From assembly GCA_049968235.1 (NCBI GenBank), contig JBMFRC010000001.1, forward strand, positions 288,001 through 352,000: a DNA stretch of 64,000 bases. Reading direction: 5' to 3'. The notes beneath the pieces were generated by a model that made no database searches, was not told where the DNA came from, and was given only the letters and a program-made list of their open reading frames with translations. Origin of the DNA: Candidatus Hydrogenedens sp. (GTDB taxonomy: Bacteria; Hydrogenedentota; Hydrogenedentia; Hydrogenedentales; Hydrogenedentaceae). Position numbers and translations under genes: made by a program. Shown in pieces: positions 3,696-57,416 of the stretch (its first letter is position 1; each line of letters opens with the position of its first letter).

Positions 3696-4445
3696 ATGCA
3701 ATGGGAGCGCATAAAAAACAATCAAAGTAAAATAATTCCTTTGTCCGGAATTTATATTTTTGTTCATACTGCAACATTTTTTGTATATGAACTTTTGTCA
3801 TTAAATTTAGAACTTTCATCGGGGAATTTTCCGAATGATATCTTATTATCCCTTGTAGATGTCGTTAGAGAACTGGTGCTTTGTGCCATTTTAGGTGGGT
3901 TACAATCTATCGTTTTTGCCCGGCTTGGTGTAATCTTAGAATTTCCTATCTGGCGTTGTAAAGATGATAAAGAAGCACTAAGTCGTTTCTTCCTGCTCTG
4001 GTTTGGAATTAATGCAGGACTAATAACCATCAATCGTGTAGCCAATATATTAGCAGAAAAAGGAATTTCAGACCTTGCTTTTTTATTGGGAGGAGTAGGA
4101 CTTATTGCAAATATTATTTATTTACCCCTTACTGTTTGCTGGATGTATTCTGGCGAAAAACTCTCTGAGGATGACTCTTTTCTTCGTGTGTTTCGTCCTA
4201 TCACACGACAATGGGGAGAAACATTAGGAATGTGGGCGATTCTCAGCATTTCCCTTTTTGTTGCTCTGTTTATATTAGGACTGCCCCTATTCCAGGAATC
4301 CTCCATTTTTACAGTTGTCATAAAAACAATTATAATTATACCTCTGGCAGGAATAGACATTTTTGTATTTTGCTGGACATGGCTGTTATGTATTCAGTGT
4401 AGAATTCAAGGATTGGATGAGGATGTATCATTAGATGATTTTTAA
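3696..4445 (+). CDS. hypothetical polytopic membrane protein
   Basis: 249-aa ORF with several hydrophobic helices, 27 bp downstream of the PilZ gene. Confidence 0.4.
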   Translation: MQWERIKNNQSKIIPLSGIYIFVHTATFFVYELLSLNLELSSGNFPNDILLSLVDVVRELVLCAILGGLQSIVFARLGVILEFPIWRCKDDKEALSRFFLLWFGINAGLITINRVANILAEKGISDLAFLLGGVGLIANIIYLPLTVCWMYSGEKLSEDDSFLRVFRPITRQWGETLGMWAILSISLFVALFILGLPLFQESSIFTVVIKTIIIIPLAGIDIFVFCWTWLLCIQCRIQGLDEDVSLDDF

Positions 4446-24946: not shown

Positions 24947-25029
24947 AATACCTTTCCTTAATTTTTAATGTTGCGTGAACAATTATTAATAATCAGTTTT
25001 CTTTTTACAAAAGACCTGTTTGATATAGA

Positions 25030-26562
25030 TTATCTAGTTTCCTGGGGTAGAAAATACTTCTTGATAAGGTCTAAATCTATATTGGGATACACAGGATATT
25101 GTTGTAATAATTCCAATACTCTTGCCTTTTGCTTTTTCTGGATAGAAGCGTCTAATACAAAATTCTTCCTGGAAGGTTTTCCTGCATTGGGTCCTTCACT
25201 TAGAATTTCTGGTTTTGTTTCATCTAAAACATCTTTAATAATTGATGCTATTTCTTTCATTTCTACTCCACCCATGCCCAGAGTGGTTACCGCGGGAGTT
25301 CCCAATCGGAGTCCACTTGTAATTAAAGGTCCATTAGGGTCAAAGGGCAAGGAATTGAAATTAAGTGTAATACCACATGCTCGTAATGCCCCTGCGGCTT
25401 GTCTGCCCGTTAAACCGTGACTTTCCTGAACATTTAACAACATCAAATGATTATCTGTTCCTCCTGTTGCAACTACCAATCCTTCACTTTTCAGAGATTC
25501 CGCCAGCATCTGTGCATTACGAACAATCTGCCTCGCATAATCACAAAATTCAGGGCGGTTTGCTTCTGTAAAAGCAACTGCTTTGGCAGAAAGAACATGA
25601 GGTAAAGGACCTCCTAAAACTAATGGACAACCTTTATCTACAAACTCAGCAAATTCTTTCTTGCAAAGAACAATCCCACCCCGGGGACCGCGCAGAGTTT
25701 TATGCGTGGTGGATGTAACAATATGAGCATGAGCCACCGGGTCATATTCCCCTTGAAATACTTTACCCGCTACCAGCCCTGCGAAGTGAGCCATATCTAC
25801 CATCAAAACAGCACCTACTTTATCGGCAATCTCACGAAGGCATGCAAAATTAATTTTGCGAGGATAAGCACTATAACCTGCCAGTAAAATGAGCGGTTTT
25901 ATTTCTTGAGCCATTCTCTCTATCTCGGTATAATCTAATAAACCGGTATCCCGACGAACGGTATAAGAATACGCATCGAACATTTTTCCTGAAATATTTC
26001 GACGGTAACCATGTGTAAGATGACCACCGGAATAATAATCCATTCCTAATAATCGCTGGTTACCCATCTTTTCACGAATTTTTTGCCATTGTTCTTGTGT
26101 AACTTTCGATGGGTCTTTTATATCCAGTTGTTCCAATTCCGGTGTTTCAATTTTCGCAGATAAAATTGCCCAATAAGCAACTAAATTGGCATCTGCACCA
26201 CTGTGAGGCTGGACATAGGCATGCTCTGCGTCAAATAATTTCTTCGCCTGTTCGCAAGCAATTGCTTCAATTGAATCTACATTTCCACAACCTTCGTAAA
26301 ACCGTTGATACGGTATTCCTTCTGCATATTTATCAGTCAATAGATTTGCCATTGCAAACTGCGTTGACAAAGAACAATAATTTTCACTTGCAATCAATTT
26401 TAGATAACTTCGCTGATCTATCAATTCCTGCACGATCCCTGTGGACACTTGAGGAGATACTTTGGCTACTTCTGCTAAATTACATAAGTAGCCTAAAAAT
26501 CCCGAATCCAGTTTGTCCGGCGGAGTAGAACCAATATACTCAATAATAGACGGGTGTATCAT
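25030..26562 (-). CDS. glyA: serine hydroxymethyltransferase (long form with N- and C-terminal extensions)
   Basis: LIASENY...KYAEG...THKTLRGPRGG PLP-lysine motif. The 510-aa ORF is about 90 aa longer than canonical GlyA, so the real start may be internal. Confidence 0.85.
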   Translation of the reverse strand: MIHPSIIEYIGSTPPDKLDSGFLGYLCNLAEVAKVSPQVSTGIVQELIDQRSYLKLIASENYCSLSTQFAMANLLTDKYAEGIPYQRFYEGCGNVDSIEAIACEQAKKLFDAEHAYVQPHSGADANLVAYWAILSAKIETPELEQLDIKDPSKVTQEQWQKIREKMGNQRLLGMDYYSGGHLTHGYRRNISGKMFDAYSYTVRRDTGLLDYTEIERMAQEIKPLILLAGYSAYPRKINFACLREIADKVGAVLMVDMAHFAGLVAGKVFQGEYDPVAHAHIVTSTTHKTLRGPRGGIVLCKKEFAEFVDKGCPLVLGGPLPHVLSAKAVAFTEANRPEFCDYARQIVRNAQMLAESLKSEGLVVATGGTDNHLMLLNVQESHGLTGRQAAGALRACGITLNFNSLPFDPNGPLITSGLRLGTPAVTTLGMGGVEMKEIASIIKDVLDETKPEILSEGPNAGKPSRKNFVLDASIQKKQKARVLELLQQYPVYPNIDLDLIKKYFLPQETR

Positions 26563-42523: not shown

Positions 42524-43759
42524 TTATCTTTCGTTAGAATTATTCTTCAGGATTCCCCTTACCTTGCTATTTTGTGTCAATAACAAGAAGGAAAGAATTA
42601 CTAAAACAAATATATCACTCAGATGTGAATTTGTTGAAGGTCCACCGGAACCGCAAGATACAATGAAAGTTCTCTTGGCTCCTTTACTCATTACCAGTAT
42701 AACCTCTGTCCCCTTAACAACTTCAGTTCCAACAGAGGGCTCGGTTCGGATTATGCTCCCTTTCGGTACATCTTTGCTATATTCTTCTTTAATCGTTGCG
42801 GATACCTTAAGTCCTGCAGATGTTAGTATTTGAATAGCCTCGTCTTTAGATTTTCCTTTAACATCCGGCACTTTTACTTTCTGAATAGGTTCTCCTTCAT
42901 TACTTCCTTCGGGAGTACCTTCAACTACACCTTCAGGGGTTCCTTCTGGACTACCTTCCTGATGACCTTCGACTGTTCCTTCGCCTTCTGCATTCCCTTC
43001 GACAGAACCTTCTGTGCTTCCTTCTATACTACCCTCTTGCATACCTTCAGGAATGCCTTCTGTTGAACCTTCTTGTGCTCCTTCTCCTTCGAGAGTGCCT
43101 TCTATTATACCTTCTTGCTGTCCTTCGGTGATTCCTTCAACATTTCCTTCGCCTTCTGCAGGCGGTTCTAATGGAAGTATTTTAGGTGCTTTCGGGTCAT
43201 CAAACATGGGAACATAAGCAAATATATCGTTGATTTGGACTTGAGCCAAATTTATTTGTGCATCCCCGGTTTGTTTCATACGGAACAATACTTTGAGCAA
43301 TTCAAGACTTCCCTTAGCACCGATATTTTCAGAACTGCTTCCTGCAATTTTCAGACTACCTGTAGCATTTGCATTAGAGTTATAACTTAACTTCATATTG
43401 CTAACTGCATCACCTAATACGACCTCCATTACCTCCGCATATTCTTTATCGAAATTAATTACAAGAGAGAAGCCCGCTATATTGGATACATTGTTCATTA
43501 CCACAGATACCCACTTTTCAGAGCCTGCTGTTCCAGATAAGTAATCTGTTAATTGGGCATAAACAGTTGCATCCTCTTTTTCTACTCGTGCAAGGGTAGA
43601 CTCCGCAGACAAAGAACCTGCATCTGCCAGCCATTTTAAGTCGCTTATATAGTCTTCATAACTCTTTGCGTCTATTTTCTTTCCTGTTGGCATTACATCT
43701 TTACCTGTTAACCAGCGTTGTAGCATGCTGGAGTCAGCACTATCCACCATTCCATCCAT
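42524..43759 (-). CDS. surface protein segment A: cohesin-like domain, xxEG tetrapeptide-repeat linker, PASTA domain and a C-terminal Cys/Gly-motif + TM + basic anchor (probably the 3' part of a disrupted giant gene)
   Basis: Cohesin-like IAGFSLVINFDKEYAEVMEV...GSLELLKVLFRMKQTGDAQI, about 25 xxEG repeats, and PASTA VPDVKGKSKDEAIQILTSAGLKV. The C-terminus is SCGSGGPS...IFVLVILSFLLL...KVRG. The frame is open upstream to 43855 and encodes a dockerin repeat (SGDFNMDGMVDSADSSMLQRWL). Confidence 0.6.
   Translation of the reverse strand: MDGMVDSADSSMLQRWLTGKDVMPTGKKIDAKSYEDYISDLKWLADAGSLSAESTLARVEKEDATVYAQLTDYLSGTAGSEKWVSVVMNNVSNIAGFSLVINFDKEYAEVMEVVLGDAVSNMKLSYNSNANATGSLKIAGSSSENIGAKGSLELLKVLFRMKQTGDAQINLAQVQINDIFAYVPMFDDPKAPKILPLEPPAEGEGNVEGITEGQQEGIIEGTLEGEGAQEGSTEGIPEGMQEGSIEGSTEGSVEGNAEGEGTVEGHQEGSPEGTPEGVVEGTPEGSNEGEPIQKVKVPDVKGKSKDEAIQILTSAGLKVSATIKEEYSKDVPKGSIIRTEPSVGTEVVKGTEVILVMSKGAKRTFIVSCGSGGPSTNSHLSDIFVLVILSFLLLTQNSKVRGILKNNSNER
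42900..43170 (-). repeat. coding tandem repeat: about 25 units of 12 nt encoding xxEG tetrapeptides
   Basis: Periodic ...ccttc... on the plus strand, which is GAAGG(N) on the coding strand. Similar arrays lie at about 44950-45135, 45545-45715 (including a perfect 21-nt duplication encoding MSEGEG twice), 52330-52440 and 54650-54690. Confidence 0.7.
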
Positions 43760-43845
43760 ATTAAAGTCACCGGATTTCTGAATACAGGGATTTCCTCCTG
43801 TGTTATTTGTCCAATAATCCAGGATATATTGTGTGTCTAAATCGT

Positions 43846-46179
43846 TTACTTCATATTATTATCCGCATCACCAAAGACACATCCGTCTGTAACACACAAT
43901 TGTCCATCTTCTAATATAAGTTCTAACGGTTGTGTAAATGAGGAGATCACATCGTATAGGCGAACTCCATTGCCGGCTCCATCATCCGGAATAAGGTGTA
44001 ACTGTCCACATAAAGGACCTAAAACAGATAAATTGGGTTTAGCAATAATATTAAACAGAGTCCCAGCACCATACAAACTTTCTGCTTTTATTCCTGCTGC
44101 AGCAATTCGAACATTAATTGTCTCACCTTGAGGTATAGCTAATGATGCTATCATCATCCCACTAGTAATACCTGATGGTAATACGGTGATAGTCTCGGGG
44201 TCTGATATTAAGGCAGATGGCAATTCCGAATCAATCTGTATGGATGTTGCTGAAACATCATAAACTGATTTTGAGTTCACGGGAATACGAATAAGTATTT
44301 CATCAAGATTTTGTGGATTCGGTTGTAGCCAATAAAGACTGGTATCTGTTATATTAACCTGTTCAGGGAAGAATACGGTTAAGTATTGTCCACGAACCGT
44401 CTCCGAAGCATCTGATAACACAGTATAACGGTCCACATCACTTACAGCCTGTATGGCATATTGGTAGTAAATCCCTAATTCTACCGCATTATCTATATAT
44501 TCTAATGTTGTTAGATAACCTTCATAAGGCAACCTGTCCGGATTATTCAATCGTTGCCAATCTGTCAATGAATTCCCATCTCTATCTACTGTCCTGCGAT
44601 ACACATTATAGCCAGCAATATTATACTCAGGATTTGTATCCCATGCTACGCGAACACTATGCGGTCCACTATAAGGACGTGGACGGAATGATTTTTGAAT
44701 ATTTCCGGGGTCTAATTCAACAAGCAATTCAGCATTGGTATCCACAGGTTGTATCGTTTTGGGCTTATATTTCCGCTTTGTAAAGTCCAAACGATATGGC
44801 GGTTGCAATGTACCTAAATCTGGAAAGGCAAAACGTCCATTATTATCTGTTAGCACAGGTTCATTCCCTTTACTATCTGCAACGCTAATTTGGACTAATA
44901 CACCGGGAATCGGGCTTTTGCTTATACTATTTATCACCTGACCACGAACACCTGCATATTCGCCTTCGAATGTCCCTTCCGTAGTTCCTTCAATAGTTCC
45001 CTCCGGAATTCCTTCAATTACTCCTTCAGGTATTCCTTCAACATTACCATCCATAGGACCTTCGGGAATCCCTTCGATAACACCTTCAATTGTTCCTTCC
45101 GTTACACCTTCAGGTGTCCCTTCTTCACAGGGTCCTGTGGAAACCCAGATATCCACAGGTATTTCTATTGTATTCTCATAATTACAAGTGCCTTCTACAG
45201 CCATAGGTTCTTGCAAAGCGATGTATCCAGCGGGATAATTATTATCACATACCTCAACAATCTGTCCTAATAATAATCCATAATCTACAATTAATTGTTG
45301 TGCCTCTTCCAATGACATACCTATAACATTAGGAACTATGGTACAGGGTCCACAAGAGATAATCAGGTCAACGATTGTTCCAATCTCTACTGTATTTCCA
45401 CCACCGGGTATTTGTTCAACGACTGTGCCTGCCGGGTATTGGTCATTGCACATCTCAATAATAGCACCAATATTTAGGTTGGCATTACTAATTTCTCCCG
45501 TTGCTTCCTGTTGCGGAAGTCCTATCATATATGGAACTATAGTTGTTTCAATAGCACCTTCGCCTTCAGACATCCCTTCGCCTTCAGACATCCCTTCGCC
45601 TTCGAATAGCCCTTCTGAACTGCCTTCAATACTACCTTCGGTAGTTCCTTCAAATGAACCTTCTCCTTCTACAATACCTTCAACTACACCGGGTTCAGGC
45701 TCTCCAATAACAGGATTGAGTGGGTCTTCAAATCTTGGGGTATGTCCATATTTATCGTGTATCTGAACCTGAACAAATTTAATATCGCCTTTTCCATCTC
45801 GCTTAATCTTAAACTTTACTTTTACCAATTCAACTTCTCCAGAGGTTCCCAACTCTTCTTCACCTCCCGCACTTATCCGCAAACTGCTACTGGAACCAGA
45901 ATTTACTACTTCATAATTCCATCGCCATATATTTGCTGCATTCACAGGTTTTACCTGCTTTACTTCAGCAAAATCACTATCATAATTCAAGACAAATTCA
46001 AATCCTGCCACATTTGTTACTTCATCAGCCACAATGGCAATCCATTTATCACTGCCTGCAGACCCTTCTAATGTGCCACGGAACCACACCTTTACTCCCA
46101 CATTATTCTTTTCTAATTTGGCTAACTTTGCTTGTGCGGATAGGGAACCATGGGAAGCTAACCATTTCAATTCATCCAC
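43846..46179 (-). CDS. surface protein segment B: cohesin-like, EG linkers, 2 PASTA, CarboxypepD_reg-like, Fn3-like, cohesin-like, then dockerin repeat 1 (interrupted). No signal peptide of its own, so it is probably the middle part of a disrupted giant gene.
   Basis: The domains can be read off the translation. The frame is open upstream to an in-frame TGA at 46270-46272, and the upstream region encodes dockerin repeats GDVNNDSVIDSTDEQFVLDYW and GDINLDG*VDSADSSLIQRWL. At the 3' end a -1 shift inside dockerin repeat 1 (GDADNNMK* versus in-frame VNDLDTQYILDYW) leads into segment A. Confidence 0.6.
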   Translation of the reverse strand: MDELKWLASHGSLSAQAKLAKLEKNNVGVKVWFRGTLEGSAGSDKWIAIVADEVTNVAGFEFVLNYDSDFAEVKQVKPVNAANIWRWNYEVVNSGSSSSLRISAGGEEELGTSGEVELVKVKFKIKRDGKGDIKFVQVQIHDKYGHTPRFEDPLNPVIGEPEPGVVEGIVEGEGSFEGTTEGSIEGSSEGLFEGEGMSEGEGMSEGEGAIETTIVPYMIGLPQQEATGEISNANLNIGAIIEMCNDQYPAGTVVEQIPGGGNTVEIGTIVDLIISCGPCTIVPNVIGMSLEEAQQLIVDYGLLLGQIVEVCDNNYPAGYIALQEPMAVEGTCNYENTIEIPVDIWVSTGPCEEGTPEGVTEGTIEGVIEGIPEGPMDGNVEGIPEGVIEGIPEGTIEGTTEGTFEGEYAGVRGQVINSISKSPIPGVLVQISVADSKGNEPVLTDNNGRFAFPDLGTLQPPYRLDFTKRKYKPKTIQPVDTNAELLVELDPGNIQKSFRPRPYSGPHSVRVAWDTNPEYNIAGYNVYRRTVDRDGNSLTDWQRLNNPDRLPYEGYLTTLEYIDNAVELGIYYQYAIQAVSDVDRYTVLSDASETVRGQYLTVFFPEQVNITDTSLYWLQPNPQNLDEILIRIPVNSKSVYDVSATSIQIDSELPSALISDPETITVLPSGITSGMMIASLAIPQGETINVRIAAAGIKAESLYGAGTLFNIIAKPNLSVLGPLCGQLHLIPDDGAGNGVRLYDVISSFTQPLELILEDGQLCVTDGCVFGDADNNMK

Positions 46180-46269
46180 ATATCCTTTGCCCGCTGTTGA
46201 GATTTTTGGAGGTGTAATACTTTTTCTTGCTAACCAACGCTGAATTAAACTGGAATCCGCACTATCTAC

Positions 46270-47574
46270 TCACCCATCGAGATTAATATCTCCTGATTTT
46301 AAGATGCATGAATGTGCACCTACTTTCCTAACCCAATAATCCAGAACAAATTGCTCATCTGTACTATCAATTACACTATCATTATTTACATCTCCATGAA
46401 TACATCCCCCTGAAACGCATAATCGTCCATCCACAAGAAGCACAGGTAAGGTTCTGTCTGATTTTGAATTACATTATATAACCGAACACCATTTCCCACA
46501 CCATCATCAGGAACTAAATGTAATAAACCACACTCATTCAAAAGATTTAAGCGAGGTTTTGCAAGAATATTAAATAATACTCCAGAACCATATAAACTCT
46601 CTGCTATCCCACCAGCAGATGATATACGAACATTAATTTTATCTCCATTTCTAACGGCATTGGCACTTATATTCATACCTGCGGTAATACCTGAGGGCTC
46701 CACCGTAATTGTGTCGGGATTGAGCAATAAACTTCTGGGCAATTCCGCATCGATTTGTATGGAAGTAGTGGAAACATCATATACAGCCTCTGAATTAACA
46801 GGTATTCTTACTAATTGTTGTTATGGATTTTGAGGGTCTCTTTCCCAGAGAAACATACCGCTATCTTTATAATTTACTTGTTCCGGGAAGAAAATAGTTA
46901 AAAATTGCCCTACTACATCTTCCGAAGCATCCGAAAGATTGGAATAACGGTCGACATCACTAACTGCCTGTATTGCATATTGATAGCGAATACCCGGTTG
47001 TATTGCGGTATCTGTATATTCTAATCCTCCAATATATCCTTCATAAGGAGGTAATCCCGGATTATTCAATTTTGCCCAAATAGAACTTCCTACTGTCCGA
47101 CGATATACATTATAGCCAGCAATGTTATATTCAGGATTTGTATCCCATCCAATACGGACACTATTGGTTCCTCCATAAACACGAGGAATGGTGGGTCTCT
47201 GAATATTTCCCGGCTCTATTTCCGCAAAAAGTTCTGCACCCGAATCAACAGGTTGAACCGTTTTCGGTTTAAATTTATTCTTTGTAAAATCCAGACGATA
47301 GGGAGGTAATAAACTCCCTAAATCGGAAAATTCAAATAGCCCATTTTTCATCTGTTAAAACAGGCTCTGTACTCTGTTTATCTGCAATACTTATTCCAAC
47401 AAGTACTCCCTCTACAGGTTTTTTGCTAATACTGTTAATAACCTGTCCCTTAACACTAAAGACTTTTTCTGCTACTGCTTGATTAGTAATAGCACATGCT
47501 ATTACTAATAGTGATATGCTCAAAAATATATTATTTTTTACAAAAATTGACTTTGCCCTACTTTTTGCATTCAT
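46270..47574 (-). pseudogene. surface protein segment C: signal peptide, CarboxypepD_reg-like, Fn3-like, cohesin-like, dockerin; disrupted by one frameshift at ~47340, an in-frame TAA at 46812-46814, a frameshift at ~46420 and a TGA at 46270
   Basis: Three ORF fragments (47332-47574, 46821-47351, 46386-46742) plus a dockerin-encoding stretch align residue-by-residue with the C-terminal half of segment B. The disruptions are a +1 in an A5 run, a CAA-like codon replaced by TAA, a -1 in a TT/TTT run, and TGA where the paralog has ATG. Confidence 0.6.
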
Positions 47575-49925: not shown

Positions 49926-52184
49926 ATGCATTTCTGGCTGATTAATGACAATGTTTTATTAAAATCTTCCCGTGCAGACATCGGTGGAAAAGGCTGGGGG
50001 CTGGTTCGATTAAAATTACAGGGATTAAATGTGCCACCTTTCGGAATAATCAGCACAGAAGGTGTGAAATATAAACTCTGGAAAACCGATACAGATTTTC
50101 AAAATGCAATAATGGCATGGTGTAAAGAGATATGGGATTGTTCCATAAGTAAGAAAGTAATCGTCCGCTCATCTGCATGTGAGGAAGACCATCAACATCA
50201 TTCTTTTGCAGGAAAGTTTTTAACAGAGGTTATAACAAAGCCAGAAGAACTTGTTCCAACACTGGACAGGATAGCCAAACATTATGCTTTAACTATAAAA
50301 ATGGATACGGGGAATTTTTCTGAAGGTCCCCATGGACTTGCAATTATTCTCCAGGAGTTTGTCAGTGGTGAAATCTCCGGCGTATGCTTTTCGACCCGAC
50401 CTATGAATGCAAATCCTCAACAAGTATATTGTGAAGTAGTAAATGGTGAAAATAAGTTGTTGGTTGATGGGGAAATACAACCCACTCGGATACTTTTTTA
50501 TCCCTCCACCGCAGAATTGATAGATTTTCAGGAAGGTTCTAATGGACCTGAATCAATACCTGAAGAATTATTAATAGAATTATCTCATGGGCTAATGAAG
50601 ATGGAATGGGATTACCGCACTGCAGTGGATATGGAATGGACATGGAATGGTAACAAGGTATGGTTTTTACAGATTCGCCCAATTACAAAGGTAACTCCTT
50701 CCCATAATTTATATCCAAAGGAATGTGCTACTTGCTGGTTTTTTGACCAACGTTTTATTGAACCGATTACAACTATTACCCAAACCACACTTATTCCGTT
50801 AATCCTGAGAAAGGCAATCACAGAGGGACTTAACATGCGACGAAAAAATACCCCCATTGAACCGTATTACTTTGGGGGTCAGGTGTATATCCCCCATCGG
50901 GCTTACTTCGATTTACTGGAGGGTTGTCCTAAATGGTGGCTTTCCTCCGATTTAAAACTGTTATTCCCTAATAACTGTGGTTGCCCGCATAAAAAAAAGA
51001 ACTTCCTGGGAATAGAATTCTGGCTGGATGCTTTTCGTTCATTGTTAAAACACTGGCGTGATGCTATTTTTGTGTTATGTCGCTGGGGACAATGGAAGAA
51101 GGATTTATCAAAGAAATTAAGTCTGTGGAATAAGGAGGATTTGTCAGAGATTACAACAGATGAATGGGTAACGCAATGGGAGCAATGCCAGAGATTATCC
51201 GAAGAATTTTTAGAAATACATCGCTGGGCAATACTCTGGTCCAGTTATGTATATCGTTTAGGGGGAAAGTATATCGTTCGTGGTAAGGAAAGACAGTATC
51301 CCTCTATTACGACACGGGCAAATCACATATTGACATCTTATTTATTCACCCGTGACATAAAATTATTAGCCCTCCTTCGCACTGAATATTCACACCGCAC
51401 AGAAAGTCTCGATTTTATATCTCCTCGATGGGGAGAATGGCTTTCCGGTGAGGAACAAAATGAATTGTTTAAAACGCAATTATTAGAGGAGAGGAAAGAT
51501 ATTCCATTAACATCACTGCAAACAAGGGAAAAAGCAGGTATTCTGTATCGTATTTTCGCAAAGTTTATACATCTGCGTGAGGAACAACGATTTGAATGGG
51601 AAAAAATATTAAATGTACAGAAAAAATTATTAAAGGAAGCAGGTAAACGATTGGTAGAAAAAGGTATCTTGATGGAGATAAATCAGGTCTGGTTTATAAG
51701 CGGGCTGGAATTAATGGAAGCACTTATAAAGGATAAGCCAATTAATCTAAAAGAAGTTTTGCTACGCCAACATCAATGGTGCGTTGAACATATATTTACA
51801 AAACCATTATTTATCAACGAAGGTGGTTTCATACTATCTACTTCCGAAAAAGATAAAGATACATGGTCAGGCTGGGGTGTGTCCGAAGGAAGAGTAAAAG
51901 GGACTGCCTATGTGAGCAGTAATCCGACTTCACTCCCATCCAATATCGCACATCCTCGTATTCTTGTAACACCTTGTTTAAATCCCGGACAGACATGGTG
52001 TCTGCAATACTGGGACGGTGTTCTATTGGAACGAGGCAGTGAACTGTCTCATCCTGCTATCATTGCACGGGAGATGAATATCCCCATGATTGCGAATTTA
52101 CCTGAGATTACACATAAACTAAACACGGGCGATTTAATTTATATAGATGCAACTTATGGTAAAGTTAGCCGTTTAAAATCTTAA
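49926..52184 (+). CDS. PEP-utilising enzyme family protein: N-terminal PPDK-type ATP-grasp (PEP/pyruvate-binding) domain plus C-terminal phosphohistidine mobile domain (rifampicin-phosphotransferase-like architecture)
   Basis: N-terminus ADIGGKGWGLVRL. The C-terminus has GRVKGTAYV... and ...ILVTPCLNPGQTW...ERGSELSHPAIIAREMNIPMIA (swivel His). There is no PEP-utilising TIM-barrel domain. Confidence 0.65.
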   Translation: MHFWLINDNVLLKSSRADIGGKGWGLVRLKLQGLNVPPFGIISTEGVKYKLWKTDTDFQNAIMAWCKEIWDCSISKKVIVRSSACEEDHQHHSFAGKFLTEVITKPEELVPTLDRIAKHYALTIKMDTGNFSEGPHGLAIILQEFVSGEISGVCFSTRPMNANPQQVYCEVVNGENKLLVDGEIQPTRILFYPSTAELIDFQEGSNGPESIPEELLIELSHGLMKMEWDYRTAVDMEWTWNGNKVWFLQIRPITKVTPSHNLYPKECATCWFFDQRFIEPITTITQTTLIPLILRKAITEGLNMRRKNTPIEPYYFGGQVYIPHRAYFDLLEGCPKWWLSSDLKLLFPNNCGCPHKKKNFLGIEFWLDAFRSLLKHWRDAIFVLCRWGQWKKDLSKKLSLWNKEDLSEITTDEWVTQWEQCQRLSEEFLEIHRWAILWSSYVYRLGGKYIVRGKERQYPSITTRANHILTSYLFTRDIKLLALLRTEYSHRTESLDFISPRWGEWLSGEEQNELFKTQLLEERKDIPLTSLQTREKAGILYRIFAKFIHLREEQRFEWEKILNVQKKLLKEAGKRLVEKGILMEINQVWFISGLELMEALIKDKPINLKEVLLRQHQWCVEHIFTKPLFINEGGFILSTSEKDKDTWSGWGVSEGRVKGTAYVSSNPTSLPSNIAHPRILVTPCLNPGQTWCLQYWDGVLLERGSELSHPAIIAREMNIPMIANLPEITHKLNTGDLIYIDATYGKVSRLKS

Positions 52185-55100
52185 GTTCGAAAGGTCTGAC
52201 TTGTCCAACGGGTGTTCTCTCCTTCGCATACCACTCATAGCAAGTAATAACATGCCCATCAACACAAAATCCAATAGATATTTTAACCAATTGTCTCCAT
52301 CCCTGGATTTATGATTACACCCACAAATTCCAGTATTTTGCCCCTCTCCTTCCCCTTCTCGAGTGCCCTCAACATTCCCTTCCACTATTCCTTCCGGATT
52401 ACCTTCTTGAGTTCCTTCCAGAGTTCCTTCACTAACTACTATACCTGCTTCTGCTTTATCAATATATCCATCCTTATTGGTATCAGCACTATCAAAAGTA
52501 TCTCGGGACAGGGTGGAATATCGTGCCACTGCTTCTTCATAGGAAACTTTCCCATCCTTATTCGTATCCACCAAATCAAAATTTGTTTTTAGGTCATTTA
52601 TGAATTGCTCTACCCCGGTTATGGTAATAGAAGCACCTTTTGCATTAATTACTCCATACCAACTCAGGTCATCTCCAAATTCCCCCTTTATTTTTACTTC
52701 GCGTATTTGAATGTTTATTTTCTTTGATGTCATCGTTGTGGGTTTAAACTTTATTTGTATAATTCGTCCTTTTTCTTTTGTTGTAATGGGTTTTTCGCTA
52801 CTTATTGAAACTTTCAAATAACCCTCACCGACTTCTGTATCCTTCTTAAAGTTGCTGGCAATATCTGCCATGTTTAATCCGTAGAAATTTATACCTTCAT
52901 CATAGGTTAAGAGCAAATCCATTCCCGCAACACCTAATAATGAACTTAATTCTATACCTGTGCGATATTCATTGTTTGAGTCCGGTGTTAGGTTATCTAC
53001 AACAATTTCCACCGTACGATTATTTTCCGTTTCTAACAAGGCTTTTTCCCCAATCACGGTTGAACTCGGATTGATTGGAAGCCCTGCCAATTTACGCAGT
53101 AGTAACGACACATCCGCACAATCTAAAATTCCATCTCCATTAAAATCACCTCTCCGTTTATCACATTCCAAATCAACAATACCTGCTTTGCGAACAATCT
53201 TGCGCAGGAACACAATCGTATCAGACATACCAATGTAACCATCAGTATCCATATCTCCATAGATGCAACGACTACTAATACAATTCGTATCTGGGTTTTC
53301 TTCCAATACATTGAGTTGTCCATGAACCAATTCTACTGGCAATTCCTTCTGCTGGGTATCTTTAATAATAACCTTCTGCAATTTCAGGTCTGTATCCTGA
53401 GCACAACTTCCTGCCACTGTATTCTGTCGCACACGAAAAACCATATCAAAGAGGTGTCCTTCTCCATAAAGCACTTTCTTCTCATTATCAACTCTGGGTC
53501 CCGCATGGAATTTTATAACACCCTGTGTACGGGTATCCGAAACAACCTCAAGATTTCGTGTTACAACCGTTTTTTGAACCTCTACAAGTTCAAGCACTGT
53601 GTTGTTGTAACTCACATTAATATCAATCGTATAGGGTTCCAATCCCCGTACACTGTTTATATTTATCGGTATCTGAATTGTATCCCCACTTCCTTCTGGT
53701 ATCCAATCGATTGTAGGTATCCATACACGTAGCTTACCCGGTTCTGCTTTGACAGGCTCTGTAGGGTCGCTTTGTTGTTGATTGGTAGCAATAGCAATCA
53801 AACGATAATACCATGCCCGAGAGGTATCCACTTCGTTATCTGTGTAATTTGTACCTGTAATAATATTTGAGGAAACAGTAATCCACGGTCCGTTTCGTGT
53901 TTCGCTTCGTTCTAATTGGTATCCTGCAAGATTTCGCTCCACATTAGGCTCCCAGATAAGATAAACATGGTCTATCCCTGAAAAAACCTGCAATCCATGA
54001 GGGGTTGAAATCTTTGTCCCAGCAGGGTCAGGACCATTACTTACAATTAACTCAACCGTTGTTCCGTTCAATACGGAACTTCCTCCAACAGGAGATTGTC
54101 CCATTACAACATTTTGTGAAACGGTATCGCTATACTGCATTACTGTACGGGTCAGCAAACCCGTAGATTGGATTTGCCCTATTGCAGAAGTTATATTCTG
54201 CCCAATAACATCCGGTACCGTGATATATGTGTTTCCAGAACATTGTCCTGTTGAAACCCAAATTGTAACTTCCGCACCTCGATTTACTCCACTATAAGCA
54301 ATTGGTGATTGGCGTATTACCTGCCCCATGGCAACATAATTGTTACATTCCCGTTCCACCTTAACATGCAAATCCGCTATCTGTATTGCCTCATTCGCCT
54401 GCTGTTCGCTTCTCCCTACAACATCTGGAACCAATACACCCGGACATAATCCACTGGATACAGTTAACTGAATATAGGTTCGTGATGAAATTACATCTCC
54501 CGATGATGGGATTTGACTCAGGACATTTCCCTGTGCCACTGTGTTACTACAGTTATAAGTCGTACGGATTCTATTCAGTCCTACACCTTCAAGAGTGTTT
54601 TTTGCTTGTTGTTCTGTCATACCGACCACCCCCGGAATAGTTACGAAGATTTCTCCTTCTCCTGTTCCTTCGCCCTCTCCCTCTCCTATAAGGTCTACAA
54701 TCCATTTAAGTAATGGATAATCTGTCCCTTCATTTGCAACCCATATATTAACAAAATCCCAATCGTTGTATGTTGCTTGCTTATACATTTCTATTGTGGT
54801 TTTTCCTGTTCCACCATCGGAAAACGATGTCCCGGCAGATTGCACATCCCAATAACTGGACACTACTGTTCCTCCATCGTTATACCCAACAAGCCCACCA
54901 ACATATAGTTTCCCCGTAACATTGGCACTGCTATAACAATTACGAATATTTGTTTCAAAAGAATTCTCAGTATTCATTTGGTACCCAACCAATCCACCGA
55001 TAAACGAATTTCCGCCAACAAAGGAATCATAAACAAAACTATCTGTTATATTGCCACCATAATTTATCCCTACAAAACCACCCACTCCATAATCAGCTGT

Positions 55101-57416
55101 TTCGCCATTCACAAGTATTTCACCGGCAACACATCTTAATATTTTCCCCTTATTTCCACCGACGAATCCACCAATACTATCATCTTGGCTTATTCCCGAA
55201 ATATAACTTGCCAGGACACCACATTCCACAATTTCACACTCACTATCAACAACAACACCCGCTATAGCACCCACAAAATAATACCCTGTAAAACTACTTT
55301 CAACAATTATTAAATTTTGAATCTTTCCCGGAGAGGTTACAATCCCAAACAGAGCTGTATAATCCGCCTCAGAATTATCAATATAAAGGTTAGAAATAAT
55401 ATGGTTTTGCCCATTAAAATTACCTCTAAATGGTTTTTCCCATGTTCCTATGGGTCTAAACCCTTTCCCATTATTCCAGTTGACTGTATCACTTGCATCT
55501 ATATCTTGAGTCAAAATATATGAACCAAAAGGTGGATAATCCGGGTCATTCCCTATCTTTTGCAACTCCTCAATACTATCTATTTCAATAGTTGGACAGG
55601 GACCTTTGAAAACGAACAAATATACTTCGCTGTTCTGTATAACTTGTGCTCCACCTTCGGGTGATTGACCTATAACAGTACCCACCGGAGTAATTTCTTC
55701 ACCGCACCCATAATCGACAATTACATGGAAACCCATTTCTTGTAGAGTAGTAACAGCATTTGCTTCTGTCATTCCCATTACATCCGGCATGTTAACATAA
55801 ACACAGCGTCCTGTTGAAACAACAATATATACAGTGCTATCTATTTGCACAACATTTCCTGCAATGGGTTCCTGCTCTATAACAACCCCTTCAGGAATAT
55901 TGTCATCACAACGGTATAGGACATTGGCAGAGAGATTTTGTACCTGAACTGTATTTATAGCGGTAGTTTCATCCATCCCGATAACATCAGGTATTGTTAT
56001 AGAACAGGGTCCTCGTGAAATAAGCAAAGAAATCTCCACATCAGGTAATTCATTTGTGCCCGGTACGGGGTTTTGAGTTATCACTGCCCCAGAAGGAACT
56101 CCATCATGGCAATCATAATATGTAGTGATTGTACCCGTAAACCCGGAGGAACGAAGTAAATTTATAGCTTCTGTCCCATTCATTCCTACAACATTAGGTA
56201 GGGGGATGAAACACGGACCTGTGGACACAATAATGGAAACAGTACCATTAAGCTCAACCGATGCCCCTGCTCCGGGCTGTTGGTCCATAACTACCCCCGC
56301 AGGATATATATTGCTACAACTATAAGACACATCAGCAATCAATCCCAATCCATTTAACATATTAACTGCATTTTCTTCCATCATTCCTAACAAACTTGGA
56401 ACTTCCACCGTATGTTGTATATTTATAACCCATCTCAAATAGGGATAGTCTGTTCCCTCTTCTATACCCCATACATTCGTGAAATCCCAGCCTGCATAAG
56501 TCGCCTGTTGTTTCATTTCTCCCGTAGTTTTCCCTGTTCCACCATCAGAAAAGAACATTTGGGACACAGTCGTATCCCAATAACTGGATGTTACAGTCCC
56601 CCCATCATTAAATCCGATAAGTCCACCTATATACATGGTTCCTGCTACAGCCGAACTACTATAACAATTTGTAACTGTGCCAGTGCTTTTCTTTGAATTT
56701 TCGAGTATTCCAACCAGACCACCGACACCGTATGCTCCTGCTATTGAGGTGATATATGAAGATGAATACACACAACTATTTATAATAACTCCACCTGTAT
56801 TACGACCCACCAATCCACCCACTCCATATTGAGCATAACTATCATAAATTGTCGAATTAGAAACTACACATCTATCTATAACTCCATAATTTCCTCCTAC
56901 CAATCCACCAACACTATTATATATGCTTCCCATCCCTTCAATATCTGAAGAGGCAACTCCACATTCTCTGATTTCTCCCGCCATATTTAATCCAACCAAT
57001 CCCCCGATAAATAAAGAACCTGCGATATTGGAATTAAATAAAATAACATTGTGAACATTCCCGCCGGATATATTTCCAAACAAACCTGCAAATTCAGATT
57101 GTCTATTAATATAAAGATAGTAAATACCATAATTCTGACCATCAAAACTCCCTGTAAATGGATTATTCGTATCCCCTATCGGTTTAAATCCTCTGCCACT
57201 ATCCCAATTAATTGTATCGCTGGCATCTATATCCCGTGTTAATACATAATTCCCGTTAAGTGGATATTCAGGCTCATTCCCTATTCTCTGCAAATCTACA
57301 ATATTGCTTATAGGAATACCTTGTGCGGAAACCAAAATACACATGCAAAAAACAAAAATGGTCAATAGTGATAAAATATAGGTAGATTCTCTCGTAGACA
57401 TTTTACAATACCTCAA
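52173..57416 (-). CDS. giant (1747-aa) secreted surface protein: signal peptide, GLUG-like beta-helix module, 4 PASTA, second GLUG-like module, EG linker, 3 PASTA, Fn3-like, cohesin-like, dockerin, cohesin-like, EF-hand pair, xxEG linker, C-terminal Cys/Gly-motif + TM + basic anchor
   Basis: An intact ORF. Repeated GGLVG motifs occur in two ~300-aa modules that are about 50% identical to each other. There are seven PASTA units (…PDV[IV]GM…). The dockerin is GDMDTDGYIGMSDTIVFLRK…GDFNGDGILDCADVSLLLRKL and the EF-hand pair DTNKDGKVSYEE / DTNKDGYIDKAE. The C-terminus is GICGCNHKS…LLDFVLMGMLLLAMSGMRRRE. Confidence 0.8.
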   Translation of the reverse strand: MRYCKMSTRESTYILSLLTIFVFCMCILVSAQGIPISNIVDLQRIGNEPEYPLNGNYVLTRDIDASDTINWDSGRGFKPIGDTNNPFTGSFDGQNYGIYYLYINRQSEFAGLFGNISGGNVHNVILFNSNIAGSLFIGGLVGLNMAGEIRECGVASSDIEGMGSIYNSVGGLVGGNYGVIDRCVVSNSTIYDSYAQYGVGGLVGRNTGGVIINSCVYSSSYITSIAGAYGVGGLVGILENSKKSTGTVTNCYSSSAVAGTMYIGGLIGFNDGGTVTSSYWDTTVSQMFFSDGGTGKTTGEMKQQATYAGWDFTNVWGIEEGTDYPYLRWVINIQHTVEVPSLLGMMEENAVNMLNGLGLIADVSYSCSNIYPAGVVMDQQPGAGASVELNGTVSIIVSTGPCFIPLPNVVGMNGTEAINLLRSSGFTGTITTYYDCHDGVPSGAVITQNPVPGTNELPDVEISLLISRGPCSITIPDVIGMDETTAINTVQVQNLSANVLYRCDDNIPEGVVIEQEPIAGNVVQIDSTVYIVVSTGRCVYVNMPDVMGMTEANAVTTLQEMGFHVIVDYGCGEEITPVGTVIGQSPEGGAQVIQNSEVYLFVFKGPCPTIEIDSIEELQKIGNDPDYPPFGSYILTQDIDASDTVNWNNGKGFRPIGTWEKPFRGNFNGQNHIISNLYIDNSEADYTALFGIVTSPGKIQNLIIVESSFTGYYFVGAIAGVVVDSECEIVECGVLASYISGISQDDSIGGFVGGNKGKILRCVAGEILVNGETADYGVGGFVGINYGGNITDSFVYDSFVGGNSFIGGLVGYQMNTENSFETNIRNCYSSANVTGKLYVGGLVGYNDGGTVVSSYWDVQSAGTSFSDGGTGKTTIEMYKQATYNDWDFVNIWVANEGTDYPLLKWIVDLIGEGEGEGTGEGEIFVTIPGVVGMTEQQAKNTLEGVGLNRIRTTYNCSNTVAQGNVLSQIPSSGDVISSRTYIQLTVSSGLCPGVLVPDVVGRSEQQANEAIQIADLHVKVERECNNYVAMGQVIRQSPIAYSGVNRGAEVTIWVSTGQCSGNTYITVPDVIGQNITSAIGQIQSTGLLTRTVMQYSDTVSQNVVMGQSPVGGSSVLNGTTVELIVSNGPDPAGTKISTPHGLQVFSGIDHVYLIWEPNVERNLAGYQLERSETRNGPWITVSSNIITGTNYTDNEVDTSRAWYYRLIAIATNQQQSDPTEPVKAEPGKLRVWIPTIDWIPEGSGDTIQIPININSVRGLEPYTIDINVSYNNTVLELVEVQKTVVTRNLEVVSDTRTQGVIKFHAGPRVDNEKKVLYGEGHLFDMVFRVRQNTVAGSCAQDTDLKLQKVIIKDTQQKELPVELVHGQLNVLEENPDTNCISSRCIYGDMDTDGYIGMSDTIVFLRKIVRKAGIVDLECDKRRGDFNGDGILDCADVSLLLRKLAGLPINPSSTVIGEKALLETENNRTVEIVVDNLTPDSNNEYRTGIELSSLLGVAGMDLLLTYDEGINFYGLNMADIASNFKKDTEVGEGYLKVSISSEKPITTKEKGRIIQIKFKPTTMTSKKINIQIREVKIKGEFGDDLSWYGVINAKGASITITGVEQFINDLKTNFDLVDTNKDGKVSYEEAVARYSTLSRDTFDSADTNKDGYIDKAEAGIVVSEGTLEGTQEGNPEGIVEGNVEGTREGEGEGQNTGICGCNHKSRDGDNWLKYLLDFVLMGMLLLAMSGMRRREHPLDKSDLSNLRF

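What the first reader, a model, noticed from the sequence alone, without database searches (positions are those of the whole stretch)
52173..52320. Shared unusual C-terminal sorting-signal-like tail (Cys/Gly motif + TM helix + basic cluster) on both surface proteins
The giant protein ends ...TGICGCNHKSRDGDNW-LKYLLDFVLMGMLLLAMSG-MRRREHPLDKSDLSNLRF. Segment A (42524-42680) ends ...IVSCGSGGPSTNSHLSD-IFVLVILSFLLLT-QNSKVRGILKNNSNER. Both tails have a short Cys/Gly-containing motif, one hydrophobic helix and a positively charged tail. That is the tripartite logic of sortase, exosortase (PEP-CTERM), archaeosortase and rhombosortase (GlyGly-CTERM) substrates. No LPxTG or PEP motif is present.
Basis: partly seen in the sequence, partly recalled or inferred. 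Interest (0 to 1): 0.6.

Follow-up and report, generated by a model that had tools for sequence, protein, structure and literature searches.

The report
Cysteine-motif C-terminal anchor tails, Hydrogenedentota
Two surface proteins of an uncultured Hydrogenedens bacterium end in short tails (cysteine motif, membrane helix, basic cluster) that belong to two conserved families not found in Pfam or NCBIfam; they are built like the MYXO-CTERM surface-sorting signal of myxobacteria, but I found no processing enzyme.

Summary
Both tails are real. They lie on the minus strand of a Candidatus Hydrogenedens contig.

**Giant protein (52173-57416).** Its tail is a strong member (80.7 bits) of a conserved module of about 42 residues: acidic (EGx)n linker, G-C-G-C, 8-12 polar residues, W-[WL]-K-Y-L-L-D...G...S-G-M, Arg/Lys, then the end. 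An exhaustive HMM search found 27 genuine representative proteins, 24 with the match within 5 residues of the C-terminus. They include GLUG, PASTA, cohesin/dockerin and papain-like proteins. Every named one is from Hydrogenedentota, and at least 4 come from one MAG.

**Segment A.** This tail does not match that HMM. It belongs to a second conserved family ([KR]RFI[VI]SCG, about 10 residues, D-[IM]...SG-LLL, basic). In this window it closes a gene broken by three frameshifts and two in-frame stops.

**Shared design.** Both families have Cys-Gly, a spacer of about 10 residues, Asp at the start of the helix, Ser-Gly near its inner end, then a basic cluster.

**Comparison with known families.** No Pfam family matches the tail of the three window proteins scanned whole, and no NCBIfam sorting-signal model hits any tail tested. 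The closest known design is MYXO-CTERM (GCGC, invariant Cys, cleaved by a CPBP-family myxosortase). No cognate enzyme turned up in about 0.54 Mb of related DNA.

**Verdict.** A new variant of a known kind. The sorting function is inferred, not shown.

The parts
52173..57416 (-). Giant secreted surface protein (1747 aa counted from an upstream TTG codon; likely ATG start at 57401): two GLUG regions, at least 7 PASTA domains, cohesin, dockerin/EF-hand pairs, EG linker and a type-1 Cys tail.
   Evidence: It is 100% identical over the C-terminal 615 aa queried (the whole alignable part of P0001, an 837-aa partial protein) to NCBI 'PASTA domain-containing protein, partial [Candidatus Hydrogenedens sp.]'. 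Ortholog in Ca. H. terephthalaticus at L001:2782-8022.
57318..57401 (-). N-terminal Sec-type signal peptide of the giant protein (MSTRESTYILSLLTIFVFCMCILVSAQG).
   Evidence: Read from the sequence. The complete tail-bearing relatives whose N-termini I read all start with a basic stretch followed by a hydrophobic stretch.
52332..52433 (-). Acidic (EGx)n low-complexity linker just before the tail.
   Evidence: The same kind of linker, or at least an acidic stretch, precedes nearly all related tails.
52317..52331 (-). Cys motif GICGC (family consensus GCGC). In the 17-tail alignment A3 both Cys and the Gly between them are invariant.
   Evidence: A3 invariant columns C6, G7, C8. Across all 31 tails, one sequence has Phe in place of the first Cys, one has Glu and one has Ser in place of the Gly.
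52290..52316 (-). Polar spacer (NHKSRDGDN). It is 8-12 residues long in the family and holds an invariant Lys.
52227..52289 (-). Transmembrane helix WLKYLLDFVLMGMLLLAMSGM. It carries the family's conserved polar positions: K-Y-x-x-D at the outer end, a mid-helix Gly, and S-G-M at the inner end.
   Evidence: invariant D24, G29, G37, M38; nearly invariant K20, S36. Scores 80.7 bits against the 31-tail HMM.
52218..52226 (-). Arg cluster (RRR), predicted to face the cytoplasm.
   Evidence: Most relatives end 0-8 residues after this cluster.
52173..52217 (-). Non-conserved 14-residue extension (EHPLDKSDLSNLRF) plus the stop codon. It overlaps by 12 nt the 3' end of the convergent gene 49926-52184.
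   Evidence: The extension is absent from the orthologs L001, P0002-P0008.
42524..43759 (-). 'Segment A': last intact reading frame (411 aa; part of a dockerin, cohesin, EG linker, PASTA, type-2 Cys tail) of a larger disrupted gene.
   Evidence: It is 100% identical to NCBI 'PASTA domain-containing protein [Candidatus Hydrogenedens sp.]', found on a 421,442-bp contig.
42527..42676 (-). Type-2 tail: KRTFIVSCG, spacer SGGPSTNSHLS, D-IFVLVILSFLLLT, then QNSKVRGILKNNSNER. Family consensus: [KR]RFI[VI]SCG, 9-11 residues, [AGS]D[IM]...SG[LF]L[LF], R/K.
   Evidence: Invariant F, I, S, C, G, D and S are kept. The window copy has SF where the family has SG, and its basic cluster is diluted.
42524..47574 (-). 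One long disrupted gene, with its signal peptide at 47574. A module of CarboxypepD_reg, Fn3-like, cohesin-like, dockerin, cohesin, EG linker and PASTA occurs twice. The gene is broken by frameshifts near 47340, 46440 and 43850 and by in-frame stops TAA (46821-46823) and TGA (46270-46272).
   Evidence: An intact single-module homolog of 973 aa with a well-formed tail lies at L011:8829-11750.

Best explanation
The two tails are lineage-specific C-terminal sorting/anchoring domains of Candidatus Hydrogenedentota, of the Cys-containing tripartite class whose studied example is MYXO-CTERM.

Proposed path:
1. The N-terminal signal peptide sends the protein through Sec.
2. The C-terminal helix stops transfer. 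The Arg/Lys cluster stays in the cytoplasm, and the large GLUG/PASTA/cohesin/dockerin body sits outside on a flexible acidic (EGx)n stalk.
3. The exposed Cys motif (GCGC in type 1, FIVSCG in type 2), about 10 residues outside the membrane, is modified, most likely S-lipidated.
4. An intramembrane protease, most plausibly a CPBP/Rce1-like myxosortase analogue, recognises the conserved helix (K-Y-x-x-D ... G ... S-G-M) and removes it.
5. The protein ends up lipid-anchored and displayed on the surface of this diderm cell. There the cohesin and dockerin modules could assemble larger complexes.

Shown: the anatomy, the conservation, the modularity, the strictly C-terminal position, the signal peptides, several members per genome, restriction of all named members to one phylum, and absence from current family libraries.

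Inferred: topology, modification, cleavage, the identity of the enzyme and surface display.
For: 1. Conserved family. A 4-tail profile searched against 1.84 billion representative proteins gave 29 hits at E<=1e-3 (16 at <=1e-10, best 5e-25). Of these, 27 are genuine, and 24 of the 27 have the match within 5 residues of the C-terminus. In the 17-tail alignment, C-G-C, K, D, G and G-M are invariant.
2. Modular. Nearly the same tail sits on GLUG-only proteins, PASTA/cohesin/dockerin proteins and a papain-like C1 peptidase.
3. Floor of conservation. In distant homologs the tail is 58% identical while the body is 38-40%.
4. Secreted. All complete members whose N-termini I read start with a signal peptide.
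5. Several per genome, one phylum. At least 4 type-1 proteins come from one MAG (three accessions in the MCA19019-MCA19028 range, two of them with LDL53 locus tags, plus one more). All named members are Hydrogenedens or Hydrogenedentota (L025 = JAOAHN01).
6. A second family with the same layout: the type-2 RFIVSCG tail, including two adjacent genes in L011. Further Cys + [GA]-[DE] + helix + basic variants occur in other EG-linker proteins (P0063, P0070, P0094, P0096, P0111).
7. Design match to MYXO-CTERM: a generic GCGC motif, an invariant Cys needed for cleavage, a preceding disordered region, a spacer before the helix (the TraA tail is FCCGTTADATPAGSTT-FLLLLAAGLTFL-RPRRPAR) and an Arg cluster (PMC11980579; bioRxiv 10.1101/2023.06.07.544157).
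8. Diderm context. LolA and a DUF481 outer-membrane protein are encoded in the window.
9. Weak leads. FIVSC fits the lipobox core by my own reading of the motif. lgt lies directly downstream of a CGC-tail gene in L001. A CPBP gene lies 2.5 kb from a type-1 gene in L030.
Against: - No NCBIfam sorting-signal model hits any tail even at E<=10; this covers MYXO-, JDVT-, Synerg-, CGP-, PEP-, GlyGly- and PGF-CTERM among others. Homology to MYXO-CTERM is therefore not shown.
- The helix begins with charged residues (K, D). MYXO-CTERM is described as lacking charged residues in its helix.
- No cognate enzyme was identified. The window has no sortase, exosortase, rhomboid or CPBP.
- The one CPBP seen sits in a RiPP-like cluster and scores 16-20 bits against Mrt models whose cutoffs are 75-100.
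- The one rhomboid seen scores 30 bits against a rhombosortase cutoff of 84.
- The lgt adjacency was seen once only.
- In close orthologs the tail is less conserved than the body: 47% against 76%, and 74% against 87%.
- There is no experimental evidence of cleavage or lipidation.
- PASTA domains would also fit a protein that stays in the periplasm on an inner-membrane anchor.
Confidence: 0.5

Rival explanations
1. A permanent C-terminal membrane anchor. The helix is never removed and the protein stays tethered to the inner membrane. The EG stalk and PASTA domains reach into the periplasm and peptidoglycan. The conserved K-Y-x-x-D, G and S-G-M positions mediate helix-helix contacts with a membrane partner or with themselves. 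The cysteines form disulfides or bind metal.
For: No processing enzyme was found in about 0.54 Mb. Polar residues conserved all along the helix are more typical of specific helix packing than of most sorting signals, and MYXO-CTERM helices lack charged residues. PASTA domains are classically peptidoglycan-facing. Some members carry extensions after the basic cluster: the window copy, P0019 and P0028.
Against: A very short cytoplasmic end (0-8 residues after the Arg/Lys cluster in most), an invariant extracytoplasmic Cys motif at a fixed distance from the helix, spread over unrelated architectures and several copies per genome are all hallmarks of processed sorting signals. GLUG/adhesin, peptidase and cohesin-dockerin modules make more sense on the cell surface than trapped under an outer membrane.
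Confidence: 0.3
2. A substrate of a rhomboid-type (rhombosortase-like) or other non-CPBP intramembrane protease. The Ser-Gly and Gly positions in the helix serve as helix-destabilising or cleavage determinants, and the Cys motif has a separate role.
For: A rhomboid gene lies about 4.5 kb from the giant protein's ortholog in one species (L009/L017). Its best NCBIfam hit is the rhombosortase model, E=3.6e-7. Small residues (G, SG) are conserved in the helix of both tail families.
Against: The rhomboid scores 30.3 bits against a cutoff of 84, so it is a generic rhomboid. The adjacency is absent from the window and from the other loci. No GlyGly motif precedes the helix, and GlyGly-CTERM was not hit.
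Confidence: 0.12
3. Chance resemblance. The two window tails are just hydrophobic C-termini that happen to have a nearby Cys, with no common function.
For: The two tails are not detectably homologous. Segment A's helix is short, its basic cluster is weak, and the gene is disrupted.
Against: Each tail belongs to its own strongly conserved family. Both families share Cys-Gly, a spacer of about 10 residues, Asp at the start of the helix, Ser-Gly near its end and a basic cluster, and both occur on EG-linker secreted proteins. No other real protein in the sampled loci has such a tail.
Confidence: 0.03

Closest known systems
MYXO-CTERM sorting signal (NCBIfam TIGR03901) with myxosortase MrtX/MrtC/MrtP (CPBP/Rce1-like glutamic intramembrane proteases); Myxococcota and Bradymonadales
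   Same: - N-terminal signal peptide
- a disordered linker before the tail
- a GCGC-type motif with an invariant Cys
- a spacer, one helix and an Arg cluster at the extreme C-terminus
- many different adhesin or hydrolase passengers, several to dozens per genome
- a diderm host
(PMC11980579; bioRxiv 10.1101/2023.06.07.544157)
   Different: - No hit to TIGR03901 even at E<=10.
- The helix carries conserved charged and polar residues (K-Y-x-x-D, S-G-M), whereas MYXO-CTERM helices lack charged residues.
- A different phylum.
- No myxosortase-core (NF040914) protein was found. The only CPBP seen scores 16.4 bits against a cutoff of 100.
JDVT-CTERM (NF033191) with MrtJ
   Same: A Cys-containing tripartite tail. 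An acidic residue sits just before or at the start of the helix: JDVT has a nearly invariant Asp-Pro, and these tails have an invariant Asp. The one nearby CPBP has MrtJ as its best, though weak, NCBIfam match.
   Different: No HMM hit. There are two Cys rather than one in type 1, and no Pro after the Asp. JDVT occurs as a two-gene cassette of enzyme plus one substrate, which is not seen here.
GlyGly-CTERM with rhombosortase; PEP-CTERM with exosortase; PGF-CTERM with archaeosortase; LPXTG with sortase
   Same: The general tripartite logic (motif, helix, basic cluster) and its role as a C-terminal tag on secreted surface proteins.
   Different: None of the signature motifs is present. None of the NCBIfam models hit. 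No such enzyme was seen near any tail gene. The one rhomboid falls below the rhombosortase cutoff.
Anchoring scaffoldins of cellulosomes (for example, sortase-anchored ScaE of Ruminococcus flavefaciens; from my own knowledge)
   Same: Cohesin-bearing surface proteins tethered to the cell through a C-terminal sorting signal. Other proteins in the same organisms carry dockerin-type modules.
   Different: A diderm candidate phylum, a Cys/helix tail instead of LPXTG or SLH, and passengers that are GLUG/PASTA/Fn3 rather than known cellulases. Cohesin-dockerin pairing here is untested.

Membership tests
MYXO-CTERM (TIGR03901) | The sequence matches the family HMM at or above the curated cutoff. | tested here: not met
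   hmmscan against NCBIfam of the whole proteins and of 15 isolated tails at E<=1 to 10 gave no TIGR03901 hit. The only related signal was E=0.12 to the tail end of NF045523, a MYXO-CTERM-anchored family.
MYXO-CTERM (TIGR03901) | Tripartite C-terminal layout with an invariant Cys (often GCGC), one helix and an Arg-rich end. | tested here: met
   Alignments of 31 and 17 tails. In the 17-tail alignment C-G-C is invariant. A 21-residue helix follows, then R/K, then the end.
MYXO-CTERM (TIGR03901) | A helix free of charged residues and proline (Haft 2023). | tested here: not met
   Nearly invariant Lys and invariant Asp at the outer end of the helix.
MYXO-CTERM (TIGR03901) | Members are secreted (N-terminal signal peptide) and occur several to many times per genome on diverse passengers. 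| tested here: met
   (at least 4 in one MAG).
MYXO-CTERM (TIGR03901) | A cognate myxosortase (NF040914 core; MrtX, MrtC or MrtP) occurs in the same genomes. | tested here: inconclusive
   Only about 0.54 Mb of fragments could be inspected. One CPBP (L030:15027-15689) has EExxxR, FxxxH and HxxxN motifs but scores 16.4 bits against a cutoff of 100 (MrtJ 20.3 against 75) and sits in a RiPP-like cluster. Whole genomes could not be scanned.
MYXO-CTERM (TIGR03901) | Cys-dependent cleavage of the tail, followed by surface display through the type II secretion system. | not testable with these tools
   Needs experiments.
GlyGly-CTERM / rhombosortase | A Gly-Gly motif before the helix and a rhombosortase (TIGR03902) in the genome. 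| tested here: not met
   No GlyGly-CTERM hit. The rhomboid L009:17099-17761 scores 30.3 bits against a cutoff of 84.
LPXTG/sortase and PEP-CTERM/exosortase | An LPxTG or PEP signature motif, with a sortase or exosortase gene. | tested here: not met
   A regex search over the last 120 residues of both proteins found neither motif. No Sortase or exosortase Pfam family appeared in the window or in the neighbourhoods of related tail genes.
JDVT-CTERM (NF033191) | An HMM match, a single Cys, a DP motif before a Leu-rich helix, and an adjacent MrtJ. | tested here: not met
   No HMM hit. Asp is present but not Pro. No conserved enzyme-substrate gene pair was seen.
Bacterial lipoprotein signal (lipobox / Lgt substrate) | [LVI][ASTVI][GAS]C at the end of an N-terminal signal peptide. 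| tested here: not met
   The type-2 FIVSC and FIISC motifs fit the four-residue core, but they lie at the C-terminus, before rather than after the helix, so the topology is inverted. This is a lead for lipidation, not membership.

The most novel reading that the evidence does not exclude
Hydrogenedentota have their own C-terminal protein-sorting system. It has at least two co-existing Cys-type signals (GCGC...KYLLD...SGM and RFIVSCG...D...SG) and an as yet unidentified processing and lipidating machinery. It tethers cohesin-bearing scaffold proteins to the surface of a diderm cell. Many other EG-linker proteins, which end instead in a dockerin-like Cys-containing domain, then dock onto them. 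This would be a cellulosome-like surface assembly in an uncultured phylum, anchored by a new sorting signal.
Probability: 0.3. Interest if true: 0.72.

Novelty: new variant of a known kind. Interest (0 to 1): 0.55.

Why it matters
C-terminal sorting signals decide which proteins a bacterium displays on its surface. Each new signal has so far led to a dedicated enzyme: sortase, exosortase, archaeosortase, rhombosortase, myxosortase. The Cys-containing class was tied to CPBP proteases only in 2023-2025, and the enzyme that modifies the Cys is still unknown.

Two sharply conserved Cys-type tails in a phylum with no cultured member would:
1. let annotators name a whole class of 'hypothetical', 'PASTA' and 'GLUG' proteins as surface-anchored;
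2. give a clean query for phylogenetic profiling to find the protease and the Cys-modifying enzyme;
3. provide, through the unusually well conserved helix (K-Y-x-x-D, G, S-G-M), a recognition motif that can be tested;
4. point to a cohesin-dockerin surface architecture in a diderm bacterium.

Tried and rejected
- **Four-tail alignment (A1) in the word-indexed protein search.** Only 14 candidates, none significant. The query was too short and too mixed; it cost one capped search.
- **The search for related loci with the 17-tail alignment A3.** Alignment A2 then gave 9 metagenome loci.
- **Exact look-ups.** The giant protein from its ATG start and the window's first gene were not on record. The Maf look-up returned only a 3.7-kb contig. 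The 421-kb parent contig could not be read beyond the window.
- **Enzyme hunt.**
  - Pfam on 43 of the 44 window ORFs of at least 150 aa found no sortase, exosortase, rhomboid or CPBP. The one not scanned, 24968..25420(+), lies on the opposite strand inside the SHMT gene.
  - Two membrane proteins with no family (3696-4445 and 10314-11921) lack properly placed CPBP motifs and have no Pfam hit even at E<=1.
  - The rhomboid in L009 was rejected as a rhombosortase.
  - The CPBP in L030 was rejected as a called myxosortase, and its context looks like a RiPP cluster.
- **lgt next to a CGC-tail gene in L001.** Not seen again in any other locus, so I treat it as an anecdote.
- **Homology between type 1 and type 2.** hhalign gives 14.6% probability and P=0.0018, which is not enough to claim homology.
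- **MYXO-CTERM tail sequences for a direct profile comparison.** Table S1 of the mBio supplement is an image, so only the TraA tail was available.
- **Literature.** Searches found no description of these tails, or of cohesin/dockerin, in Hydrogenedentota.
- **My first impression that the tail is always better conserved than the body was wrong.** That holds only for distant homologs.

Full report
**1. What is in the window**

Both peptides quoted in the finding are there, but on the minus strand.

The giant ORF 52173..57416(-) is 1747 aa counted from an upstream TTG codon; the likely ATG start is at 57401. It encodes:
- a signal peptide
- two GLUG regions
- at least seven PASTA domains
- a cohesin
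- dockerin/EF-hand pairs
- an acidic (EGx)n linker
- the tail GICGC-NHKSRDGDN-WLKYLLDFVLMGMLLLAMSGM-RRR-EHPLDKSDLSNLRF

'Segment A' is ORF 42524..43759(-), 411 aa. It holds a cohesin, an EG linker, one PASTA domain and the tail KRTFIVSCG-SGGPSTNSHLS-DIFVLVILSFLLLT-QNSKVRGILKNNSNER. Neither tail contains LPxTG or PEP.

The window has 38% G+C. Its DivIVA protein is 93% identical to that of Candidatus Hydrogenedens terephthalaticus. Both proteins exist verbatim in NCBI MAGs of Candidatus Hydrogenedens sp., where they are named only 'PASTA domain-containing protein'. LolA and a DUF481 outer-membrane protein in the window indicate a diderm cell.

**2. Segment A is the end of a broken gene**

Minus-strand region 42524-47574 is one long gene, with its signal peptide at 47574. 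A module of CarboxypepD_reg, Fn3-like, cohesin-like, dockerin, cohesin, EG linker and PASTA occurs twice in it.

The gene is interrupted by frameshifts near 47340, 46440 and 43850 and by in-frame TAA (46821-46823) and TGA (46270-46272) codons. This is either a pseudogene or an error-ridden assembly. An intact 973-aa single-module homolog lies at L011:8829-11750.

**3. The giant protein's tail defines a conserved family (type 1)**

Orthologs keep the tail: L001, P0002 at 72% identity, and P0003/P0004 at 33%.

I searched a profile of four tails exhaustively against 1.84 billion representative proteins. It returned 29 hits at E<=1e-3, 16 of them at <=1e-10, the best at 5e-25. Of these, 27 are genuine and two are repeat junk. 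In 24 of the 27 the match ends within 5 residues of the C-terminus; the other three carry short extensions.

Aligned, the tails read:

(EGx)n - G-C-G-C - 8 to 12 polar residues with an invariant Lys - [WFL][WLM]-K-Y-[LI]-[LV]-D-x-x-x-x-G-[ML]-x-x-x-x-[MI]-S-G-M - R/K cluster - end

In the 17-tail alignment C, G, C, K, D, G, G and M are invariant.

The passengers differ: GLUG-only proteins, PASTA/cohesin/dockerin proteins and a papain-like C1 peptidase. Nearly identical tails sit on unrelated bodies, for example P0003 and P0005. This is therefore an independent module.

Other properties:
- All complete members whose N-termini I read begin with a signal peptide.
- All named members are Hydrogenedens or Hydrogenedentota, and at least four come from one MAG.
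- In distant homologs the tail (58% identity) is better conserved than the body (38-40%). In close orthologs it is not: 47% against 76%, and 74% against 87%.

**4. Segment A's tail belongs to a different family (type 2)**

An HMM built from 31 type-1 tails scores the giant protein at 80.7 bits. Segment A's tail did not appear among the listed matches.

Homologs of Segment A nevertheless share their own conserved tail:

[KR]RFI[VI]SCG - 9 to 11 residues - [AGS]-D-[IM] - hydrophobic stretch ...SG[LF]L[LF] - R/K - short end

Two adjacent genes in L011 both carry it. The window copy keeps the invariant F, I, S, C, G and D. It has SF where the family has SG, and its basic cluster is diluted, which fits a decaying gene.

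Profile-profile comparison of the two types gives only 14.6% probability (P=0.0018). It aligns KYLLDFVLMGML with SHVGDMLTLGLV, that is, on the Asp. The two types share a design:
- Cys-Gly
- a spacer of about 10 residues
- Asp at the start of the helix
- Ser-Gly near its inner end
- a basic cluster

They do not share demonstrable homology.

Further variants turn up among other EG-linker proteins recovered in the same search: P0063, P0070, P0094, P0096 and P0111 (Cys motif, then [GA]-[DE], a helix and a basic cluster), and the 322-aa protein in L001 (PICGC, then a longer spacer, a helix and RRL).

**5. More than chance**

In the related loci L001-L006 and L009-L015 I examined 138 ORFs of at least 150 aa. 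Every single-helix C-terminal tail belonged to an EG-linker protein with a Cys motif. The only other C-terminal helices were the last helices of two polytopic membrane proteins, Lgt and Nramp.

**6. Comparison with known systems**

No Pfam family matches the tail of the three window proteins scanned whole. No NCBIfam (June 2026) sorting-signal model hits any tail at E<=10. PGAP names for these proteins carry no CTERM label.

[quoted passage not shown] MYXO-CTERM has a generic GCGC motif, an invariant Cys, a preceding disordered region, a helix and an Arg cluster. The TraA tail even has a spacer of about 14 residues.

According to that work, MYXO-CTERM is cleaved by the CPBP protease MrtX in a Cys-dependent way. 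The cleavage probably follows lipidation, for which Lgt is the leading suspect, and surface export goes through the type II secretion system (PMC11980579).

Differences here:
- no HMM match
- charged and polar residues conserved in the helix, which MYXO-CTERM lacks
- a different phylum; MYXO-CTERM is reported only in Myxococcota and Bradymonadales

**7. The enzyme question is open**

The window contains no sortase, exosortase, rhomboid or CPBP. I inspected the neighbourhoods of about 15 distinct tail genes, holding about 0.54 Mb in all. They yielded only two candidates:
- A generic rhomboid 4.5 kb from the ortholog in one species. It scores 30.3 bits against a rhombosortase cutoff of 84.
- A true CPBP (EExxxR, FxxxH and HxxxN motifs present) 2.5 kb downstream of a type-1 gene in L030/L031. 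It sits among four small paralogous peptides, two GNAT genes, an ABC ATPase and a radical SAM/SPASM maturase, which looks like a RiPP cluster. It scores 16-20 bits against Mrt models whose cutoffs are 75-100.

In L001, lgt lies directly downstream of a CGC-tail gene. I saw that only once.

**8. Verdict**

The best reading is that these are Hydrogenedentota-specific Cys-type C-terminal sorting/anchoring domains that work like MYXO-CTERM (confidence about 0.5). The main rival is a permanent inner-membrane anchor (about 0.3).

With high confidence these are conserved, modular, lineage-restricted tail families that are absent from current libraries. That makes the finding a new variant of a known kind. 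Processing, lipidation and the enzyme remain to be shown.

Noticed in passing
window 42524-47574 (-): One long surface-protein gene with an internally duplicated module. It is broken by three frameshifts (near 47340, 46440 and 43850) and two in-frame stops (TAA at 46821-46823, TGA at 46270-46272). It is either a pseudogene or an assembly problem in a repeat-rich gene. An intact single-module homolog lies at L011:8829-11750.
   Followed up: partly
P0041, P0048-50, P0061, P0065, P0066, P0068, P0071, P0073, P0074 and others; L025:320-2707: Many EG-linker proteins, several of them named Hydrogenedens or Hydrogenedentota, end not in a Cys/helix tail but in a different conserved C-terminal domain of about 60 residues...H-x-S-D-Y-N-P-Q-D-W-x-I-s-L-S-E-L-L-R-l-I-Q-F-F-N-s-G-G-Y-H-x-C-P-g-s-E-D-G-F-C-P-G. 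It looks like a single dockerin/EF-hand loop plus conserved Cys. In the two proteins I scanned, Pfam gives only sub-threshold EF-hand hits. It may be the partner of the cohesins on the tail-anchored proteins.
   Followed up: partly
L001:14634-15476 (-) and L001:15512-16480 (-): In Ca. Hydrogenedens terephthalaticus, lgt (TIGR00544, 122.8 bits, above its cutoff) lies 36 bp downstream of a 322-aa secreted protein that ends in EG linker, PICGC, a long spacer, a helix and RRL. This is intriguing because Lgt is the suspected lipidating enzyme for MYXO-CTERM. It was seen only once.
   Followed up: partly
L030:12734-19453 (+): A RiPP-like cluster next to a type-1 tail gene: four small paralogous peptides that start MKHIK/MKRIQ..T, two GNAT acetyltransferases, a CPBP/Rce1-like protease, an ABC ATPase, a 279-aa protein of unknown family, and a radical SAM/SPASM maturase-like protein.
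   Followed up: partly
window 38155-41601 (+): A 1148-aa fusion of multihaem cytochrome c modules (NapC/NirT-like, c7/c3-like, MtrC-like) with a C-terminal cytochrome b561/NiFe-hydrogenase cytochrome-b domain. It follows ApbE and a GFO/IDH/MocA oxidoreductase. This could be an extracytoplasmic electron-transfer module.
   Followed up: no
window 11940-13499 (-) and 10314-11921 (-): An M14 zinc carboxypeptidase with a CarboxypepD_reg domain and a dockerin-like C-terminus (DINSDGKVNDEDVD...DVDGNG). Directly downstream is a 535-aa membrane protein with about 9 helices and no Pfam or NCBIfam match.
   Followed up: partly
window 8103-10244 (+): ADH_N, ADH_zinc_N + GFO_IDH_MocA, and GFO C-terminal domains are spread over three abutting or overlapping ORFs. 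This suggests further frameshifts or fused genes, so the assembly may carry indel errors.
   Followed up: no
L009:9824-12553 (+) / P0002: In the related MAG GCA_036769585.1 the ortholog of the giant protein is only 850-909 aa. It lacks the whole N-terminal GLUG/PASTA half and any signal peptide but keeps the type-1 tail. It is either truncated or mis-assembled.
   Followed up: no
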